DNA of 64,000 bases from positions 14,376 through 78,375 of the IMG/VR virus record IMGVR_UViG_2667527770_000005, one strand, 5' to 3'. Within the stretch, counting starts at the first letter, position 1; every line of letters starts with the position of its first letter. Below, piece after piece: positions 39,947-46,941 of the stretch. The position numbers and the translations under genes were made by a program. The notes below the pieces were generated by a model. The model was not told the DNA's origin, did not search any database, and was given only the letters and a program-made list of their open reading frames with translations. This DNA comes from a virus (lineage: Duplodnaviria > Heunggongvirae > Uroviricota > Caudoviricetes).

Positions 39947-40022
39947 TGGTGGCCCCTACCGGACTTGAACCGGTGACCGTGCGATTATGAGTCGCCAGCT
40001 CTAACCACTGAGCTAAAGGGCC
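39947..40022 (-). tRNA. tRNA with CAT anticodon (Met, or Ile if lysidine-modified), encoded CCA
   Basis: Hand-folded cloverleaf: acceptor GGCCCTT/AGGGGCC, D arm GCTC..GAGC, loop CTCATAA, T arm ACCGG-TTCAAGT-CCGGT. Confidence 0.85.
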
Positions 40023-40049
40023 GGATTACTGCCAATTTTGCTTACGCTT

Positions 40050-40877
40050 TTATTTCACCGGAACAAACGGAACAGCGGTATTACTGGTCATATACTGCGG
40101 TAATGTACCGTTCCATTTGTTGATCGCTTCCAACTCCATAACACCGGGGTTCTGGCGCAGAGCTTCACCACGTAAACGAATGGCATCAGCTTCGGCCTGG
40201 GCTTTTGTGCGAATAGCATCAGCCTGTCCGGCAGCTTCCGCGCGCAGCATGTTGGCCTCTGCTTCACGTTGTTTGACCTCTTGCTCGCGTTGCAGGGTTT
40301 TTTGGTTTGCCGTGACTTTGGCGTTAATACTGTCAATAACTGTTGGCGGGTATTCTGGCTTACCTACATAAGAGAGGCTCATCACCTGAATGCCGATTGG
40401 CGTCATTTCTTCCTGAATGTCTTTAAGGGCTGCATCAAGCAATTCGGATTTGCCACCGTCGATAAATTTGTCGGTTGTCATTTTGCTGGCTAACCGGTTC
40501 AGAGCATCTGCAACCTTCTGGCGTAGATCGGTATCAGTAATATCATCTACACCTTTGCGATAGGTCTGAAATACCGTTGTGACTTTTGCTGGATCAACCT
40601 TGTAGGCTACGCCGATGTGGTAACCAATGGTTGTTCCGTCGCTCATCTGGAAGCTGAACAGCTCATCGTATGTCTTCATTTGCTTAAAGGTCGGGAAGAT
40701 ATAAACTTCAGTATTCAAGCCTGTCCAGTAGCGACCAACGCCAACTACTTCACCGATACCTTTATCATCCCCCAGCTTATTTACTTTGATCCCTACGTTA
40801 CCTGGCTCTACCCGATCGCATCCGGTCAGACATAAAGAACCCAAAATAATCGCTGCACTAATCAACGTTTTTTTCAT
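40050..40877 (-). CDS. SPFH/band-7 (prohibitin-like) lipoprotein, 275 aa
   Basis: Signal peptide with lipobox LTGC; SPFH-like core followed by coiled coil. Confidence 0.65.
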   Translation of the reverse strand: MKKTLISAAIILGSLCLTGCDRVEPGNVGIKVNKLGDDKGIGEVVGVGRYWTGLNTEVYIFPTFKQMKTYDELFSFQMSDGTTIGYHIGVAYKVDPAKVTTVFQTYRKGVDDITDTDLRQKVADALNRLASKMTTDKFIDGGKSELLDAALKDIQEEMTPIGIQVMSLSYVGKPEYPPTVIDSINAKVTANQKTLQREQEVKQREAEANMLRAEAAGQADAIRTKAQAEADAIRLRGEALRQNPGVMELEAINKWNGTLPQYMTSNTAVPFVPVK

Positions 40878-41094
40878 TAATTAATTTCCTGGTTTTTTCA
40901 CGAAAAAAGACTACTGCGAAAGCTGGGTAAATGAGCGCGAGAAGGACTCCCAACAATACAAGTATTGTGCTGTTAGATGAGATCATATTTGGCAAAAGCC
41001 AAACATACAGAACCAGTGACACAATCAAACAGAGGACGGCATAAATATATAACCGCACCCATAGCGTTCGACATTTGTTCGGATTGTTCTGCAT
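40858..41094 (-). CDS. small two-TM membrane protein, 78 aa, partner of SPFH protein
   Basis: Overlaps SPFH gene start; hydrophobic. Confidence 0.45.
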   Translation of the reverse strand: MQNNPNKCRTLWVRLYIYAVLCLIVSLVLYVWLLPNMISSNSTILVLLGVLLALIYPAFAVVFFREKTRKLINEKNVD

Positions 41095-41237
41095 CCTCTC
41101 ACTCCATTATTTAACGAATAAAAAAGCTGCGGTGCCGGGTGCCTCCCGGTGTCCTTTGGCTGGTTATCCACCGTGGACGGGGAAACAAGGAGAAATGAAT
41201 GTACTGATATAACCATTTCCCCGCGTGCGCTTAGCCG

Positions 41238-41580
41238 CATTCACCGCAACGGAAAGAGCATTCTTGGTGGACCTGTAGATTGGGATATGAACCCGTTACA
41301 GGAGAATGCTCTTACCTGTTACGTGCTCCGTTTCGTGGAGCTAACGGCGGGTGATCGGGCCGCACCAGACTGGACTTATTTCAGCGTTATGCTCATGCCA
41401 GAGAATCAAACTGTGATGGTCGGTGCTGAACTCCGACACAGGGTTGTAGCAAGCCCCGCAAAGCGCGCACTACTGTAGTTGCGGCACATCAGCCTGTGCA
41501 TTCACCACAATGTTGAGAACACTGGTTGTCACGCTGCAACGCAACATTTATTCATAGATTGGGATATGACCCCGTTACGC
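41238..41580. repeat. duplicated about 60-80 bp module (GCATTCACC..TAGATTGGGATATGA(A/C)CCCGTTAC) plus 17-bp inverted repeat AATGTTGAGAACACTGG/CCAGTGTTCTCAACGTT
   Basis: Copies at 41238..41300 and 41498..41580 read directly. Confidence 0.7.
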
Positions 41581-41826
41581 CAGTGTTCTCAACGTTGTAG
41601 TGCCGGTTACGGTTCCGGCCAGGCCTCTTCCTCAACGGGGTGTTCTCCATACGGACTACCGTTTATTGGTCGTTCCTGCGGTTTATGTTGTGAAGCCAGA
41701 TGCTTATCTTCTGGTTGCTTCAAAGAGCTGCACTTCATCACAACGGTAAGGGTACTTCGTAGGGATTCGAACCCTCTGCCAAGCACGGCGATCTCCGACG
41801 TCGCAAAATACCCTTACCTGTTGTGT

Positions 41827-41903
41827 TGGTGCCGGTTAACGGACTCGAACCGCTGACATCCTGCTTACAAGGCAGGCACTCTACCAACTGAGCTAAACCG
41901 GCA
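41827..41903 (-). tRNA. tRNA-Thr (TGT)
   Basis: Hand-folded: anticodon stem CCTGC/GCAGG, loop CTTGTAA, T arm GCGGTTCGAGTCCGT, encoded CCA. Confidence 0.88.
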
Positions 41904-41906
41904 ATT

Positions 41907-41993
41907 TGGTGGGGAGTGATGGAGTCGAACCACCCGAGTCGCAATGACAGTAGATTTACAGTCTCCCCCGCTACCTCTACGGACTAACTCCCC
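41907..41993 (-). tRNA. class II tRNA, probable tRNA-Tyr (GTA)
   Basis: 87 nt, long variable arm, loop CTGTAAA, T loop TTCGACT, encoded CCA. Confidence 0.7.
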
Positions 41994-41998
41994 TAAAT

Positions 41999-42073
41999 TG
42001 GCGATGGTGGGTGGATTCGAACCACCGACCAGTTGGTTAACAGCCAACTGCTCTACCGCTGAGCTACACCATC
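41999..42073 (-). tRNA. tRNA-Asn (GTT)
   Basis: Acceptor GATGGTG/CACCATC, loop CTGTTAA, T arm GGTGG-TTCGAAT-CCACC, encoded CCA. Confidence 0.88.
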
Positions 42074-42732: not shown

Positions 42733-42763
42733 TACACTAATAAATTTATTAGAGCAATATGGC
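42733..42763. promoter_or_regulatory. tandem/overlapping C1 operators upstream (minus strand) of the tRNA-SPFH-ban transcription unit
   Basis: ACACTAATAAATTTATTAGAGCAATATGG contains two Op matches. Confidence 0.6.
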
Positions 42764-45700
42764 TATAACGTCATGAGCAACACCTCGAGTGTCTCCCTTA
42801 CAAGACACAGAACGTCTGGCAAAAAGAGGTTCCACTCTGAAGCCACTGTCATGATAAAGCTCTCTGATGTTTGGCGCGCCACTGTTAGTAATGAGAACTT
42901 TTGCACCTCGACGATGAGCATCCGTCAACAGAGACACCAGGCGTTTTTGCTCTTCAAACTTAAAGTCATGACCGGAATAGTTCGTGAATCCCTCTGTATT
43001 TGGAAGCGGTTCATACGGCGGATCGCAAAAGATGACATCTCCTTCTCCGGAAGCTTCAATCACCGCTGCAAAATCACCGCATACAAACTCAGACCGCCCT
43101 TCCGCACCGAGGAAGGCTTCCATCTCCTGTAATGGGAAATACGGAGTTTTATACTTCCCATAACCGACATTGAACTCACCGGCCTGGTTGTAACGCGTCA
43201 ATCCGTTAAAACAATGTCGGTTCAGGAACAAAAACGCCGCTGCGCGATGTAAATCATCATAGACTTGTTTGTTAAACGCATTCCGTACTGCCAGGTATCC
43301 TTCCTGTGTGTTGTAGTCCTGGAAGAAACGATGTGCCAGAGTGATAAGTGAATGCGCCTCGCGTTGCAGAGTCTTGTAAAAGTTAATCAGGTCAGCATTC
43401 ACATCATTTAGCAGATTTTCCTGGTATCCGGCATTCATGAAGACAGCTCCGCCACCAACGAAAGGTTCAATCAGGCGCTTCCCTTCTGGCAAATAGCGAA
43501 AGATTTGTTCCAGAACACCAAATTTTCCACCAGCCCATTTGAATATGGACCGTTCGAATTCTGTCGCTGGTTTAACTTTTCGCTCTTTTGTTTCACTTCC
43601 TTCTTTCTGCCGACATACGGCCTTAGTAATCCGATCGCCAATCCAGCGCATTACTGGTATTGCCATACTATTGCCGATCGCTTTGTAACGCGGTCCGTCA
43701 GCTGCAAGCATCGCGGCCTCTTCTTCGCTTAAATCTGGATAGTGATTGCGGAGATATGCCAGTTCATCTGAATTAACTTTTTTACGCTTTTCCGTCGGGA
43801 TCAACGTATGCCCATCAGGAAAACCTTGCAGCCTTTCACATTCGACAGGGGTAAGACGGCGGACAGCTACTTCTGCGTTTCTTACTTCATAGCAAACAGC
43901 TGTTGGATTTTTAGCCATTAGAGATGGTGAAGTATTCTTAGTTGCAGCATGTTGTGTACCGCTCATACGCTCAGGAAAAGCCAATGTAACAAGATGCTCA
44001 TGGCTTTCTTGCTCACGTGCCCGCAATGTACCATGCCCTTCTGACCAAAAACCTGCTCCTGTGCTGCTAAAAACGGCAAGGTCAGTGGCATCTTTAAAAT
44101 CTCTTGCCTTTACTGTCGATGCGGTTTCATCGTCAATATATTCCCCAAATGCCGCCATCCTGAAACCGTTTACGGCTTTCGTCGATTTCATACCGGGAGA
44201 CATGCCAGCGTGTAGGCATGGATTTAGGCTTTCGCCACTGATTGCAGCGCCATTTGCAATAATGGCGGAAGCGATTTCCTTCTTTTTTCGGCTCGGCGCA
44301 ATATTCCGGCGCACGCCTTCGAACTCAAAAAGTACCGTTGCGGGATCGAGGTCTGTTCGAGCACTTGCGACAACAAACACGCGTCGGCGTCGTTGTGCCA
44401 CTCCGAAGTATTGGGCATCAAGGATTCTCCAGGCCACCTTTCGCTGCGGTCCATAAATACAACCACACTGCGGCCACTTTGGAACATGGCAACCGGTTTT
44501 GCCATCCCACCGCCAGAACGCGTTGCTTTTTCCTGATTCAGGTCGATCACCTGGTTCAAATGGCACATCTTCTCCAGCCAATCCGGCAAGGAAACATCCG
44601 AAGGCGTTATCTGCCAATGACAAGACTCCTGGGACATTTTCCCAGACGATAACGGCTGGTTTGAGAAATGACTCAGCCCGTTTGTCGTCAATTGCATTTG
44701 CAAGCTCCACATACTTTAAAGTTAGCGCGCCACGCTCATCATCAAGCCCACCACGTAATCCCGCGATACTGAATGCCTGACAGTTATGGACCACCGCACC
44801 ATTGAGGATATAGGAATGATCACCTTCGACTTCTATGTTGTATACAGTATCTAGGCCTACCGATTTAAACTCTTTGACTGTTCGTAAAAGCATTCCATGA
44901 GCCAATCTTGATTTACGTGACAATTTCTGCGGGCAGATTGTTACCTGATAATAATCCCGTTGATTTACCACGCGATCCTCGATCACTTTTTTGGGCTCAA
45001 CTTCAATAAAGCTGACCGAAGAAACATAACCACAAGTCTGTGACAACCCCGCAACGCCCCAAGCAAGCGCAGGACTAACACTATTAATTCTAAATCCCGC
45101 TTTACCACTTGGTGTCCCATCAGTATCAAGATAGCCTTGTAAAAACACATGACGCAATGGATGCGACATCACCCATGCAGGGATACGTTTAGCATGGCTT
45201 AACTCGCCAAAATGTTCATTAAGCCAATTGGCATAACACGTATCATTCAAGGTTACTTTGATGCTCCCTCGGATTTCGCTTGCCACGGAAAACATGTTTT
45301 CTGGTATGTGGCAATGAAACTTTCTCAATTTCTGGCAATTTATGCCAAAAACAACCGCCTTCTTAGATTTACCTCTCCATCTCCTAATATATCCATCGCC
45401 TACATAAGCGCCCGCAAGATACATAGCCTGTTCTTCAGACAAGAACCGAGAACAAATATCTGGAGATGCAATATTGAAATTAGTTAGAGCGCACCATTGA
45501 TATCCCGGCATATCACATGCTGCTCGCCATTCCGGTTCAGACAACAACTCTCTCTTAAAATATGTGCCATTTTTCCGGGTGTTTTGGGCTTTCCACCGAA
45601 CAGCCAGGAAGGGATGGTCATTGGTTGTTCTTATACCTAAAGGCTGCCCAACGGCATTAAGTAACCCCGTATTAGCTATTTTTGAACCAACTCTTTTTAC

Positions 45701-46036
45701 TTGTTGTAACCGCCCGAGATGACTGACTACGTAATCGCCAGGGCAAACATCTTCTATTGGTTTATAACCATTTTTACAAAGAACCATATGCCCCGCGGTA
45801 AAACATGGTGTTCCCCCGACGAGCACGTCAGGGGATTCGATTTCCCCAGCCAAGACTTTTTTGGCAAGTTTTGTCATGTCGCCAAGGTTGGCGACATGGG
45901 GCCAGCGGAGCGCAAGAACGGCAGATGGAAAAGGCTCGATTTCAGCAAACCACGCCGGACGCATACCCAACGGTTCCCAGGCAATACTCGCGGCTTCAAT
46001 TCCACTGCAAACAGATCCGTAGCACAGCTCTTTCAC
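42749..46036 (-). CDS. dmt: Dmt bifunctional DNA methyltransferase (N-terminal C5-cytosine MTase, C-terminal Dam-like N6-adenine MTase) interrupted by an intein; 1095-aa precursor
   Basis: C5-MTase motifs (CSGIEA, ENV in VIVWENVPG, split PC|QAFSIAG); Dam motifs ([39 protein letters not shown]); GTG start overlapping hrdC stop. Confidence 0.9.
44783..45805 (-). mobile_element. intein (341 aa) with LAGLIDADG homing endonuclease, inserted in motif IV (PCQ) of the C5-MTase domain
   Basis: Begins Cys (CFTAGHMV), ends VVHN, followed by Cys (+1) of CQAFS; two LAGLIDADG motifs ([24 protein letters not shown]); excision restores [12 protein letters not shown] and a 754-aa host protein. Confidence 0.85.
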
Positions 46037-46941
46037 TGCTTAGCCTCTCCGCCAAGGGCATTTACCAGAGCATCAACCAGGCACGAAATTTCACTGGTCA
46101 ACAGGAAGAAATCTGCGTCCAGTCGCTGCGCAACATCTTCACTATCAATATCAGCGTTCTGCTCAAGCAATTCATCCGCAAATTTGACGCTGGTAAGGCT
46201 GAAGTTATGGTCCAGTGTAAATTTAATGCGGTTCTGCCAGTCGAGTGCCAACTTAGTGACGAGCTTGCCAGCTTCCAGGTGTGTGGATATTTCATCACTT
46301 CCCAAGTCCTGCTTTTTCACTCGGGCAATACCGCCATCCTCAAGCACTGCCTTAAGTTCTGCCGCATCCCCCATTTGAAATCCCTGCGGAGCACTACCAT
46401 CACGCACCCAGTCGGTCAGCGTTAACTCAATTTGATTTTCAACACTTAGGGGCACAACAGGAAGAGAACCCAGAGATTTACGCATAAGCGCGAGCATATC
46501 CTCTGCCTGTCGCGCGCTGGCATTGATATAGATACGTTTAGTTGAACCGTCGTAGATCGCCTGGATAACAGAAAACTTTGAAAAAGCCCGTGGCAGAAGA
46601 GAATGCAGAACTTCGTCTTTCAGGGAGTCCTTCTCTGTTTTCTTCAGTTTACGCGCTTGTTCTTGCTCAAGTTTTTCAATTTTTTCTTGAATAGCTCGCT
46701 GGATAACCGGCGGGGGAAGAATTTTTGTTTCGCGCTTTGCTTCAACAAGGATAAAACCATTTCCATGCATAGCGATAACTTCGGAATTATCACCAAATGG
46801 AGATACAAAACCGAACTTGGCCATATCCTGACTACCGCATGGCGTGAAAAGGATCATTTTCTTTTTATCTTCTAAGTCGGTCAGATCCGCCTCACGAGAA
46901 AGTTTATAAATAGTAATGTTTTTCCAGTGCTTAAACATGTT
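46033..46941 (-). CDS. hrdC: HrdC, RdgC-like recombination-associated protein, about 302 aa
   Basis: RdgC-like N-terminus [13 protein letters not shown] at internal ATG; upstream of dmt as in P1. Confidence 0.8.

What the first reader, a model, noticed from the sequence alone, without database searches (positions are those of the whole stretch)
44783..45805. Intein with LAGLIDADG homing endonuclease splitting the catalytic PCQ motif of dmt
The 1095-aa Dmt precursor has a 341-aa insertion exactly inside C5-MTase motif IV: GGTP-[C FTAGHMV ... GAVVHN]-CQAFSIAG. The insert starts with Cys, ends with His-Asn and is followed by Cys, which is the canonical class 1 intein signature. It contains two LAGLIDADG-like blocks ([12 protein letters not shown] and [12 protein letters not shown]). 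Removing it gives a 754-aa protein with an intact PCQ motif. Inteins in phage-plasmid methyltransferases are unusual; this one makes cytosine methylation depend on protein splicing and suggests an active homing element.
Basis: seen in the sequence. Interest (0 to 1): 0.8.

Follow-up and report, generated by a model that had tools for sequence, protein, structure and literature searches.

The report
Homing intein inside P1-like dmt methyltransferase
The dmt DNA-methyltransferase gene of this P1-like phage-plasmid is interrupted, exactly at the catalytic cysteine of its cytosine-methylase half, by a well-preserved self-splicing intein carrying a LAGLIDADG homing endonuclease; the element is real and common in P1-like plasmids, but it is an ordinary member of a widespread intein family.

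Summary
ORF 42749-46036 (-) encodes a 1095-aa Dmt. Residues 78-418 (window 44783-45805, 1023 bp) are absent from reference P1 Dmt, which reads GTP|CQAFS and is 754 aa.

The insert has every class-1 intein mark: Cys1, block B TxxH, two LAGLIDADG motifs with their Asp residues, a C-terminal His-Asn and Cys+1. Pfam and NCBIfam intein models pass their cut-offs. An AlphaFold model (pLDDT 92.8) matches PI-SceI, the TliVMA intein and PI-PfuI best. Cys+1 aligns with the catalytic Cys of M.HhaI motif IV.

The element is polymorphic: about 27% of dmt-bearing PLSDB plasmids and 31% of dmt-bearing complete E. coli genomes carry it. All 24 copies examined are intact. Intein synonymous divergence (dS 0.017) is ten times lower than in the adjoining N-extein (0.170), which fits recent horizontal spread.

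Relatives at 26-55% identity occupy the same motif IV site of C5 methylases in many phyla and phage contigs. Inteins in C-5 methylases are already reported for actinophages. I found no paper on the P1/dmt case.

Verdict: a real intein and a new member of a known kind. Splicing and endonuclease activity are inferred, not shown.

The parts
42749..46036 (-). dmt precursor ORF (1095 aa plus stop). It is a fusion of an N-terminal C5-cytosine MTase domain, interrupted by the intein, and a C-terminal Dam-type N6-adenine MTase domain.
   Evidence: Pfam DNA_methylase 1.9e-29 and MethyltransfD12 4.6e-56. TIGR00571 dam 5.5e-74. 97.9-99.2% DNA identity to dmt of P1, RCS47 and Ro157c2YLVW.
45806..46036 (-). 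N-extein (aa 1-77): C5-MTase motif I (CSGIEAAS, 45986-46009) through ...VLVGGTP, the first half of motif IV.
   Evidence: Aligns with M.HhaI residues 19-80.
44783..45805 (-). Intein, 341 aa, Cys1 ... His340-Asn341.
   Evidence: Absent from P1 reference Dmt. Clean indel. HMM hits. AF2 model pLDDT 92.8. Foldseek top hits are PI-SceI (E 7e-17), the TliVMA intein, PI-PfuI and PI-PkoII.
45485..45805 (-). N-terminal splicing (HINT) region, intein aa 1-107, all beta. It includes Cys1 (45803-45805) and block B T61-x-x-H64 within TTNDHPF (45608-45628).
   Evidence: Secondary structure of the model. C1, T61 and H64 are invariant in 14 homologues at 24-52% identity. Pfam Hint_2 covers precursor aa 77-126.
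44996..45448 (-). LAGLIDADG homing-endonuclease domain (about intein aa 120-270). Motif 1 is [12 protein letters not shown] (45386-45421, Asp137). Block D is AKRIPAW (45173-45193, Lys206). Motif 2 is [12 protein letters not shown] (45107-45142, Asp229).
   Evidence: Pfam LAGLIDADG_3 at 30.3 bits. Alpha-beta-beta-alpha-beta-beta-alpha repeat in the model. Domain-level matches to I-DmoI and I-SceI. G138, K206 and G230 invariant; D137 and D229 conserved in at least 90%.
44783..44995 (-). C-terminal splicing region, intein aa 271-341. It includes block [13 protein letters not shown] (44810-44845) and block G GAVVHN (44783-44800).
   Evidence: TIGR01443 intein_Cterm above cut-off. phmmer match to the C-terminus of the Spl DnaX mini-intein. 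N341 invariant.
44780..44782 (-). Cys+1, the first C-extein residue. It is the predicted splice-junction nucleophile and also the catalytic Cys of motif IV (PCQ).
   Evidence: Spliced sequence [12 protein letters not shown] aligns with M.HhaI AGFPCQAFSISG. That this M.HhaI Cys is the catalytic Cys81 is established knowledge. Cys+1 is present in 24 of 24 intein-bearing copies.
43787..44782 (-). Rest of the C5-MTase domain in the C-extein: motif VI ENVPGV (44624-44641), motif VIII QRRRRVF (44375-44395), a variable linker, and motif [16 protein letters not shown] (43817-43858). Motif X GNSMAIPV follows at 43652-43675.
42752..43555 (-). Dam-type N6-adenine MTase domain (precursor aa 828-1095; DPPY at 43013-43024). 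It lies outside the intein-interrupted domain.
   Evidence: Pfam MethyltransfD12 at aa 834-1066. TIGR00571 at aa 830-1092.

Best explanation
Window 44783-45805 (- strand) encodes a canonical class-1 intein with an embedded LAGLIDADG homing endonuclease. It is inserted in frame in the dmt gene of a P1-like phage-plasmid, between the Pro and the catalytic Cys of C5-cytosine-methyltransferase motif IV.

Inferred mechanism of splicing. The 1095-aa precursor is translated as one chain. Cys1 makes the N-S acyl shift. Cys+1, which is also the future methyltransferase nucleophile, attacks the thioester. Asn341 then cyclises, assisted by His340. This releases the 341-aa intein and ligates the exteins into the 754-aa Dmt with an intact GTPCQ loop.

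Inferred consequences for Dmt. C5 methylation should need splicing, because the catalytic loop is split. The separate C-terminal Dam domain may work without it.

Inferred mobility. The free intein, or the precursor, is predicted to cut intein-less dmt alleles at ...GGAACACCT|TGTCAGGCATTC.... When an intein-bearing and an intein-free P1-like element share a cell, repair would copy the intein in (homing).

What is shown and what is inferred. Shown here: the anatomy, the fold, the conservation, the presence/absence polymorphism, and much lower divergence in the intein than in its flanks. Inferred: the splicing chemistry, the dependence of m5C activity on splicing, and current endonuclease activity.
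For: (1) Exact in-frame 341-aa / 1023-bp presence-absence polymorphism at one site.
(2) All class-1 marks are present: Cys1, T61xxH64, H340-N341 and Cys+1. They are invariant or nearly so across 14 homologues at 24-52% identity and intact in 24 of 24 E. coli-type copies, with no stop codons.
(3) Profile matches pass curated cut-offs: LAGLIDADG_3, Hint_2 and TIGR01443. A full-length match to an intein-containing RNR PHROG scores 5.5e-12.
(4) The AF2 model has pLDDT 92.8 and pTM 0.89. The 16 best PDB matches are all LAGLIDADG inteins: PI-SceI, TliVMA, PhoVMA, PI-PfuI and PI-PkoII, with E from 7e-17 to 1.5e-9. I-DmoI and I-SceI follow for the nuclease domain.
(5) Cys+1 aligns with the motif IV Cys of M.HhaI.
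(6) The intein is under purifying selection (dN/dS 0.26). Its dS is 0.017, against 0.170 in the N-extein and 0.040 in the first 100 C-extein codons. Nucleotide diversity is 0.0068 in the intein and 0.055 in the N-extein, and the step occurs at the junction.
(7) The same intein (at most 1.5% divergent) sits in two N-extein haplotypes about 7% apart. One of them is almost identical to existing empty alleles.
(8) 65 of 84 distant full-length relatives lie at x[P/E/D]|C...N|C with ENV/ENY downstream, the same motif IV site.
(9) There is no Rfam hit in the region, including group I or II introns.
Against: No experiment shows splicing or DNA cleavage. Block F position 4 is Asn rather than the common Asp, although Asn is conserved in this family.

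The distribution follows lineage. All 7 intein-bearing plasmids fetched are typed IncHI1B by MOB-suite, and 7 of 8 intein-free ones are IncY. Much of the spread could therefore be vertical.

The second N-extein haplotype has no empty-site counterpart in PLSDB; the best hit across the joined junction is 94.9%. Independent invasion of that allele is therefore not proven. Some stretches of the neighbouring hrdC are as conserved as the intein (diversity about 0.006). Intein-free alleles with nearly identical target sites persist at about 70%, which argues against very efficient homing.
Confidence: 0.9

Rival explanations
1. The intein splices, but its endonuclease is no longer active or is rarely used. 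On this view the patchy distribution reflects vertical inheritance in one P1-like sub-lineage, plus ordinary homologous recombination that shuffles the flanking dmt segments. It would not reflect ongoing homing.
For: Intein presence correlates with replicon type: IncHI1B-typed for intein-bearing and IncY for intein-free plasmids. The group-B N-extein haplotype has no empty counterpart. dmt is mosaic in general, with diversity up to 0.10 in its linker. Empty alleles with near-identical target sites remain the majority.
Against: Both LAGLIDADG Asp residues and the block D Lys are intact in all 24 copies, and the whole intein has dN/dS 0.26. The divergence step lies exactly at the intein/N-extein junction, within 4 bp. 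That is what site-specific insertion predicts, and it would be an odd coincidence for random recombination. An IncHI1B-typed intein-free plasmid (L017) and a record deposited as phage P1 that carries the intein (L002) both break the lineage rule.
Confidence: 0.3
2. The insertion is a decayed, non-splicing intein remnant. On this view the C5-MTase half of Dmt is dead in these elements, and the precursor serves only as a Dam methylase.
For: Only the Dam activity of P1 Dmt is known to matter for the phage, in pac-site packaging (PMC12707154). C5 activity of P1 Dmt is annotated only as 'perhaps'. Block F position 4 is Asn.
Against: Every splicing residue is conserved in 24 of 24 copies and across homologues down to 24% identity. 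There are no frameshifts or stops. All C5-MTase motifs (I, IV, VI, VIII, IX, X) are intact in the exteins. Extein dN/dS is 0.16-0.26.
Confidence: 0.06
3. The insertion is not an intein. It would instead be an in-frame group I or II intron carrying a LAGLIDADG ORF, a free-standing homing-endonuclease gene fused by chance, or a bacterial intein-like (BIL) domain.
For: LAGLIDADG ORFs also occur in introns, and Hint_2 also matches BIL domains.
Against: There is no Rfam intron hit. HINT beta-strands flank the nuclease domain on both sides in the model, and the best structural matches are full inteins. A +1 Cys is conserved, the insert sits inside a conserved catalytic motif, and it has a nested endonuclease. 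All three are atypical of BILs (established knowledge).
Confidence: 0.02

Closest known systems
PI-SceI (Sce VMA1 intein) and archaeal VMA/Pol inteins (TliVMA, PI-PfuI, PI-PkoII)
   Same: The two-part architecture is the same: a HINT splicing domain split by a LAGLIDADG pseudo-dimeric endonuclease. Cys1, His-Asn and Cys+1 are present, and the insert lies in a catalytic motif of the host protein. These are the best structural matches.
   Different: Sequence identity is only 11-16%. This intein is smaller (341 aa against 454 aa for PI-SceI; the PDB chains matched are about 360-540 residues) and has no large extra DNA-recognition insert. The host protein is a DNA methyltransferase on an enterobacterial phage-plasmid.
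Inteins in actinobacteriophage DNA methylases (Kelley et al. 2016, PMC5050341; PMC9957025; bioRxiv 10.1101/2025.01.02.630785)
   Same: These are LAGLIDADG inteins in phage DNA methylase genes. They are sporadically distributed and diverge much less than their exteins, which is read as recent homing. The 2025 survey lists C-5 methylases (IPR001525) among the host proteins.
   Different: The well-described cases are in N6/N4 methylases of actinophages. The element here is in a C5 + Dam fusion protein of Escherichia/Salmonella P1-like plasmid prophages. The actinobacterial relatives I found (P0020, P0023) are only 28-29% identical.
Motif IV ('PC') inteins of C5 DNA methylases in other bacteria and phage contigs (for example Mannheimia haemolytica P0012, Metarhizobium album L021, many IMG/VR contigs)
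   Same: The insertion point is the same, immediately before the catalytic Cys, and the intein family is homologous at 26-55% identity. CF[TP]AG at the N-terminus, VVHN at the C-terminus and the LAGLIDADG motifs are conserved.
   Different: The host methylases belong to different C5 subfamilies (GSPCQ, SPDC[KT]HFS, SPECT) and mostly lack the fused Dam domain. As far as I could find, these cases exist only as automatic annotations such as 'Hint domain-containing protein' or 'DOD-type homing endonuclease'.

Membership tests
Class 1 intein | In-frame insertion in a conserved host protein that is absent from orthologues | tested here: met
   P1 reference Dmt and about 370 PLSDB plasmids lack exactly these 1023 bp.
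Class 1 intein | N-terminal nucleophile (Cys/Ser at position 1) and block B TxxH | tested here: met
   C1, T61 and H64 are invariant in alignment A1 and present in 24 of 24 copies.
Class 1 intein | C-terminal His-Asn followed by a +1 Cys/Ser/Thr | tested here: met
   ...VVHN|C. N341 is invariant and Cys+1 is conserved in at least 90%. TIGR01443 scores above its cut-off.
Class 1 intein | HINT fold formed by the N- and C-terminal segments | tested here: met
   AF2 model with pLDDT 92.8. Foldseek probability is 1.00 to PI-SceI, TliVMA and PI-PfuI, and mini-intein/BIL HINT domains also match.
Class 1 intein | Autocatalytic protein splicing that yields ligated exteins and a free intein | not testable with these tools
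   This needs expression and a gel or mass spectrometry. It is inferred only from residue conservation.
LAGLIDADG homing endonuclease (intein-borne, two-motif type) | Two LAGLIDADG motifs, each ending in a catalytic acidic residue | tested here: met
   YLAGAYVGD137G and LQGYLDTD229G. D137 and D229 are conserved in at least 90%, and G138 and G230 are invariant. Pfam LAGLIDADG_3 scores 30.3 against a cut-off of 22.5.
LAGLIDADG homing endonuclease (intein-borne, two-motif type) | Pseudo-dimeric alpha-beta-beta-alpha-beta-beta-alpha fold | tested here: met
   Helix and strand order in the model for residues 124-267. Matches to I-DmoI and I-SceI.
LAGLIDADG homing endonuclease (intein-borne, two-motif type) | Site-specific cleavage of the intein-less allele, and homing | not testable with these tools
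   The evidence is indirect only. Intein dS is 0.017 against 0.170 in the N-extein, there is a sharp divergence step at the junction, and the intein sits in two flank haplotypes.
C5 cytosine DNA methyltransferase (host protein, PF00145) | Motifs I, IV (PCQ), VI (ENV), VIII (QxRxR), IX and X all present once the insert is removed | tested here: met
   Motif positions. Pfam DNA_methylase at 1.9e-29. Alignment of the spliced sequence to M.HhaI motifs I-VIII.
C5 cytosine DNA methyltransferase (host protein, PF00145) | Demonstrated m5C activity and a recognition sequence | not tested
   The P1 record says only 'perhaps at C5 cytosine'. I found no methylome data in the searched papers.
Bacterial intein-like (BIL) domain | HINT domain without a nested endonuclease, in variable non-conserved proteins, and usually without a conserved +1 nucleophile | tested here: not met
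   A nested LAGLIDADG domain is present, the insertion lies in a conserved catalytic motif, and Cys+1 is conserved.

The most novel reading that the evidence does not exclude
The intein is an actively homing element that moves between co-resident, compatible P1-like phage-plasmids (IncY-type and p0111/'IncHI1B'-typed). In addition, because its two nucleophiles are cysteines and Cys+1 is the methylase's own catalytic residue, splicing may act as a conditional switch, for example redox- or timing-dependent. Such a switch would delay or gate C5 methylation relative to Dam methylation during P1 development.
Probability: 0.15. Interest if true: 0.55.

Novelty: new member of a known kind. Interest (0 to 1): 0.3.

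Why it matters
P1 is a classic model phage and the archetype of phage-plasmids, which spread resistance genes in Enterobacteriaceae. About 3% of complete E. coli genomes carry this intein through P1-like elements. GenBank, however, annotates the gene only as a 'Dam family methyltransferase', and I found no paper that mentions the intein.

It offers a genetically tractable, native E. coli system for studying intein splicing and homing between plasmid prophages. One intein-bearing genome is even deposited as a phage P1 isolate with E. coli MG1655 Z1 named as host. It also offers a compact 341-aa LAGLIDADG enzyme with a defined natural target.

There is a practical point as well. The length variation of dmt (754 aa against 1095 aa) should be read as an intein polymorphism when typing or annotating P1-like plasmids.

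Conceptually it adds nothing new. It follows the known rule that inteins sit at catalytic residues of nucleic-acid enzymes in phages.

Tried and rejected
Literature. Ten full-text searches used combinations of intein with P1, dmt, phage-plasmid, RCS47, cytosine methyltransferase and DNA methylase. None found a paper on an intein in P1-like Dmt. They returned only actinophage methylase inteins and general reviews.

PDB sequence search with the intein gave only weak hits, to the Spl DnaX mini-intein C-terminus and to PI-PkoII. The fold search was needed for a clear answer.

Empty-site search. I searched PLSDB for an empty-site allele matching the second (group B) N-extein haplotype. None was found; the best junction-spanning hit was 94.9%. 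Independent invasion of that allele could therefore not be shown.

Rejected readings. A group I/II intron was rejected because Rfam gave no hit in the region. A BIL domain and a fused free-standing endonuclease were rejected on architecture.

GC content. The intein is 43.0% G+C against 49.0% for the rest of dmt. This is compatible with a foreign origin but is not strong evidence on its own.

Not used: the second structure-prediction job, the metagenome scan and the representative-protein search. They were not needed.
Full report
**1. The observation**

The window holds a 1095-aa ORF on the minus strand (42749..46036, GTG start). The peptide CFTAGHMV...GAVVHN occupies precursor residues 78-418, which is 341 aa. 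It is flanked by ...VLVGGTP and CQAFSIAG.... The window is a P1-like phage-plasmid. The gene is 97.9-99.2% identical at the DNA level to dmt of phages P1, RCS47 and vB_EcoM-Ro157c2YLVW. The intein segment, the N-extein and a 2,023-bp stretch spanning the intein (window 44283-46305) are each 100% identical to E. coli plasmid NZ_CP015997.1.

**2. The insertion is clean**

Reference P1 Dmt (AF234172) is 754 aa and is annotated as a 'bifunctional DNA methyltransferase'. It lacks precisely the 341 residues and reads ...GTP|CQAFS.... RCS47 and a genome deposited as 'phage P1 isolate del res del mod' (OP279344) both carry the insert.

I aligned 19 loci at the DNA level. All 9 intein-free alleles read ACACCT|TGTCAG on the coding strand. 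All 10 intein-bearing alleles read ACACCA-[1023 bp]-TGTCAG. The difference is therefore a clean 1023-bp indel plus one synonymous third-position change in the adjacent Pro codon.

**3. What the insert is**

- Profile matches. Pfam finds LAGLIDADG_3 (30.3 bits, cut-off 22.5), Hint_2 (28.5, cut-off 28.4) and a weak Intein_splicing match. These sit between a split C5 DNA_methylase domain and an intact C-terminal D12 (Dam) domain. NCBIfam TIGR01443 (intein C-terminal splicing region) passes its cut-off, and intein-containing RNR, GyrA and RFC models give weak hits. PHROGs matches the whole 341 aa to the intein part of an RNR family.
- Conserved residues. I aligned the insert with 13 homologues at 24-52% identity. 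C1, T61 and H64 (block B TxxH), G138, K206 (block D), G230 and N341 are invariant. D137 and D229 (the LAGLIDADG acidic residues) and Cys+1 are conserved in at least 90% of sequences.
- Fold. An AlphaFold2 model built on that alignment is confident (mean pLDDT 92.8, pTM 0.89). All-beta N- and C-terminal segments enclose a helix-strand-strand repeat domain. In a Foldseek search of the PDB the 16 best hits are all LAGLIDADG inteins: PI-SceI at E 7e-17, TliVMA, PhoVMA, PI-PfuI and PI-PkoII. Free LAGLIDADG enzymes (I-DmoI, I-SceI) follow and match the central domain.
- Intron check. Rfam finds no intron or other RNA family in the region.

The insert is therefore a class-1 intein with a nested two-motif LAGLIDADG endonuclease.

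**4. Where it sits in the host protein**

With the insert removed, the N-terminal part of Dmt aligns with M.Hha[13 protein letters not shown] matches AGFPCQAFSISG, followed by ENV (motif VI) and QxRxR (motif VIII). By established knowledge this Cys is the catalytic nucleophile (Cys81) of M.HhaI. The intein's +1 Cys is therefore also the methylase's catalytic Cys. The unspliced precursor has its catalytic loop split by 341 residues. Motifs I, VI, VIII, IX and X and the Dam DPPY motif are all intact. It follows, by inference, that C5 activity requires splicing. The separate Dam domain is the part known to matter for P1 pac-site packaging (PMC12707154), and it may not need splicing.

**5. Distribution**

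- PLSDB plasmids. The intein DNA is found in 133 plasmids, 126 of them at full length and all at 95% identity or more. The dmt N-extein is found in 496-501 plasmids. Intein-free records span exactly 1000 bp of a 2023-bp query. About 27% of dmt-bearing plasmids therefore carry the intein.
- Complete E. coli genomes. 152 of 5,426 carry the intein and 491 carry dmt, which is 31% of dmt carriers.
- Host species. Carriers include E. coli, E. albertii, E. fergusonii, Salmonella and Shigella.
- Replicon type. The seven intein-bearing plasmids I fetched are all typed 'IncHI1B' by MOB-suite. Seven of the eight intein-free ones are IncY. Presence therefore partly tracks lineage.

**6. Is it mobile?**

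All 24 intein-bearing copies I examined keep every key residue and have no stop codons. Comparisons among the distinct haplotypes (15 for the intein, 13 for the N-extein and 14 for the C-extein segment in the dN/dS analysis; 18 whole-locus haplotypes in the diversity analysis) give:

| Segment | dS | dN/dS | Diversity (pi) |
|---|---|---|---|
| Intein | 0.017 | 0.26 | 0.0068 |
| N-extein (adjoining) | 0.170 | 0.16 | 0.055 |
| First 100 C-extein codons | 0.040 | 0.26 | not computed for this segment |

The rise in diversity begins within 4 bp of the N-terminal junction. The same intein, at most 1.5% divergent, lies in two N-extein haplotypes about 7% apart. One of them is nearly identical to existing empty alleles. 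Others have used this same pattern to argue for recent homing of actinophage methylase inteins (PMC9957025).

Four caveats apply:
- The second N-extein haplotype has no empty counterpart in PLSDB.
- Parts of the neighbouring hrdC are as conserved as the intein.
- dmt is mosaic in general.
- Empty alleles remain the majority.

My reading is that horizontal spread by homing is likely. Whether the endonuclease is active today is unproven.

**7. Relatives elsewhere**

A protein search with the intein found homologues at 48-52% identity inside other PF00145 methylases, for example in Mannheimia haemolytica. It also found homologues at 29-34% identity in actinobacterial and alphaproteobacterial genes. 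Scans of one genome per species and of IMG/VR found 71 loci in the species genomes and at least 266 matches in IMG/VR.

Of 84 non-Escherichia full-length relatives, 65 sit at x[P/E/D]|C...N|C with ENV/ENY within 70 residues downstream. This is the same motif IV site, in several C5 subfamilies (GSPCQ, SPDC[K/T]HFS, SPECT). Of these 65, 55 show both LAGLIDADG-like motifs. The element therefore belongs to a large, old family of inteins that occupy the catalytic Cys of C5 methylases in bacteria and their phages.

**8. Comparison with what is known**

Inteins in phage DNA methylases are documented for N6/N4 enzymes in mycobacteriophages (PMC5050341; PMC9957025). A 2025 survey lists C-5 methylases among actinophage intein hosts (bioRxiv 10.1101/2025.01.02.630785). 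Automatic annotation already labels some relatives 'Hint domain-containing protein' or 'DOD-type homing endonuclease'. Ten literature searches found nothing on the P1/dmt intein itself. The GenBank and RefSeq records call the gene only a methyltransferase.

The finding is a new, apparently undescribed member of a known kind, not a new kind.

**9. Verdict**

The claim of rarity is not: the intein is common in P1-like elements and its family is widespread. Interest is modest. The value lies in better annotation, in a tractable native E. coli system for studying splicing and homing, and in a compact LAGLIDADG enzyme with a known natural target.

Noticed in passing
window 39947-42073 (- strand): There are four tRNA genes just downstream of dmt: Met(cat) at 39947-40022, Thr(tgt) at 41827-41902, Tyr(gta) at 41907-41993 and Asn(gtt) at 41999-42073. 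The tRNA-Tyr scores only 35 bits in Rfam. From memory, reference P1 has three tRNA genes, so the Tyr gene may be an extra in this lineage.
   Followed up: no
L001 (AF234172 P1 reference dmt), residue 74 of Dmt; equivalent to window about 45815-45817: The sequenced reference P1 Dmt reads VWGTPCQ, whereas every other allele examined, with or without the intein, reads VGGTPCQ. The Gly-to-Trp change lies three residues before the catalytic Cys. It might impair the C5 activity of the reference lab strain, or alter the predicted homing-endonuclease target.
   Followed up: no
window about 43483-44282 (dmt linker between the C5 and Dam domains): This segment of dmt is highly variable, with diversity of 0.05-0.10 among intein-bearing alleles. 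Some alleles (OP279344, L007, L010) encode a Dmt 82 aa shorter (3042-bp gene) with a different sequence after ...RRDIAPSR. dmt is therefore mosaic independently of the intein.
   Followed up: partly
P0012 / L107 (Mannheimia haemolytica and a matching IMG/VR contig): A 48%-identical intein sits in a C5-methylase ORF that ends about 20 residues after the intein (...VVHN|CQSDKGGTVKASGGGFEWRE). The C-extein looks truncated, yet this protein is seen on 578 contigs. The intein may be persisting in a broken host gene, or the gene may be split.
   Followed up: no
L004-L018 (PLSDB plasmids): Intein-bearing P1-like plasmids are typed 'IncHI1B' by MOB-suite (7 of 7). Intein-free ones are mostly IncY (7 of 8; the exception is the E. 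albertii plasmid L017). The two replicon types should be compatible, which would allow the co-residence that homing needs.
   Followed up: partly
L002 (OP279344.1, 'Escherichia phage P1 isolate del res del mod'): A genome deposited as phage P1, with E. coli MG1655 Z1 given as host, carries the full intein. The sequenced reference P1 strains AF234172 and AF234173 do not.
   Followed up: partly
L048 (Ruminococcus sp. MAG) and L159 / P0024 (Parvibaculum indicum type): A few relatives of the intein appear to lie in other contexts. In L048 the upstream residues are ...WENV|C. In L159/P0024 the site is HPP|C...HN|CTRL, in a protein without a PF00145 hit. The intein family may therefore also occupy other sites or other methylase-like proteins.
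   Followed up: no
window 44783-45805 compared with the rest of dmt: The intein is 43.0% G+C, the rest of dmt is 49.0% and the whole window is 47.4%. This is compatible with acquisition from a lower-GC donor such as Pasteurellaceae, where homologues at 48% identity occur.
   Followed up: no
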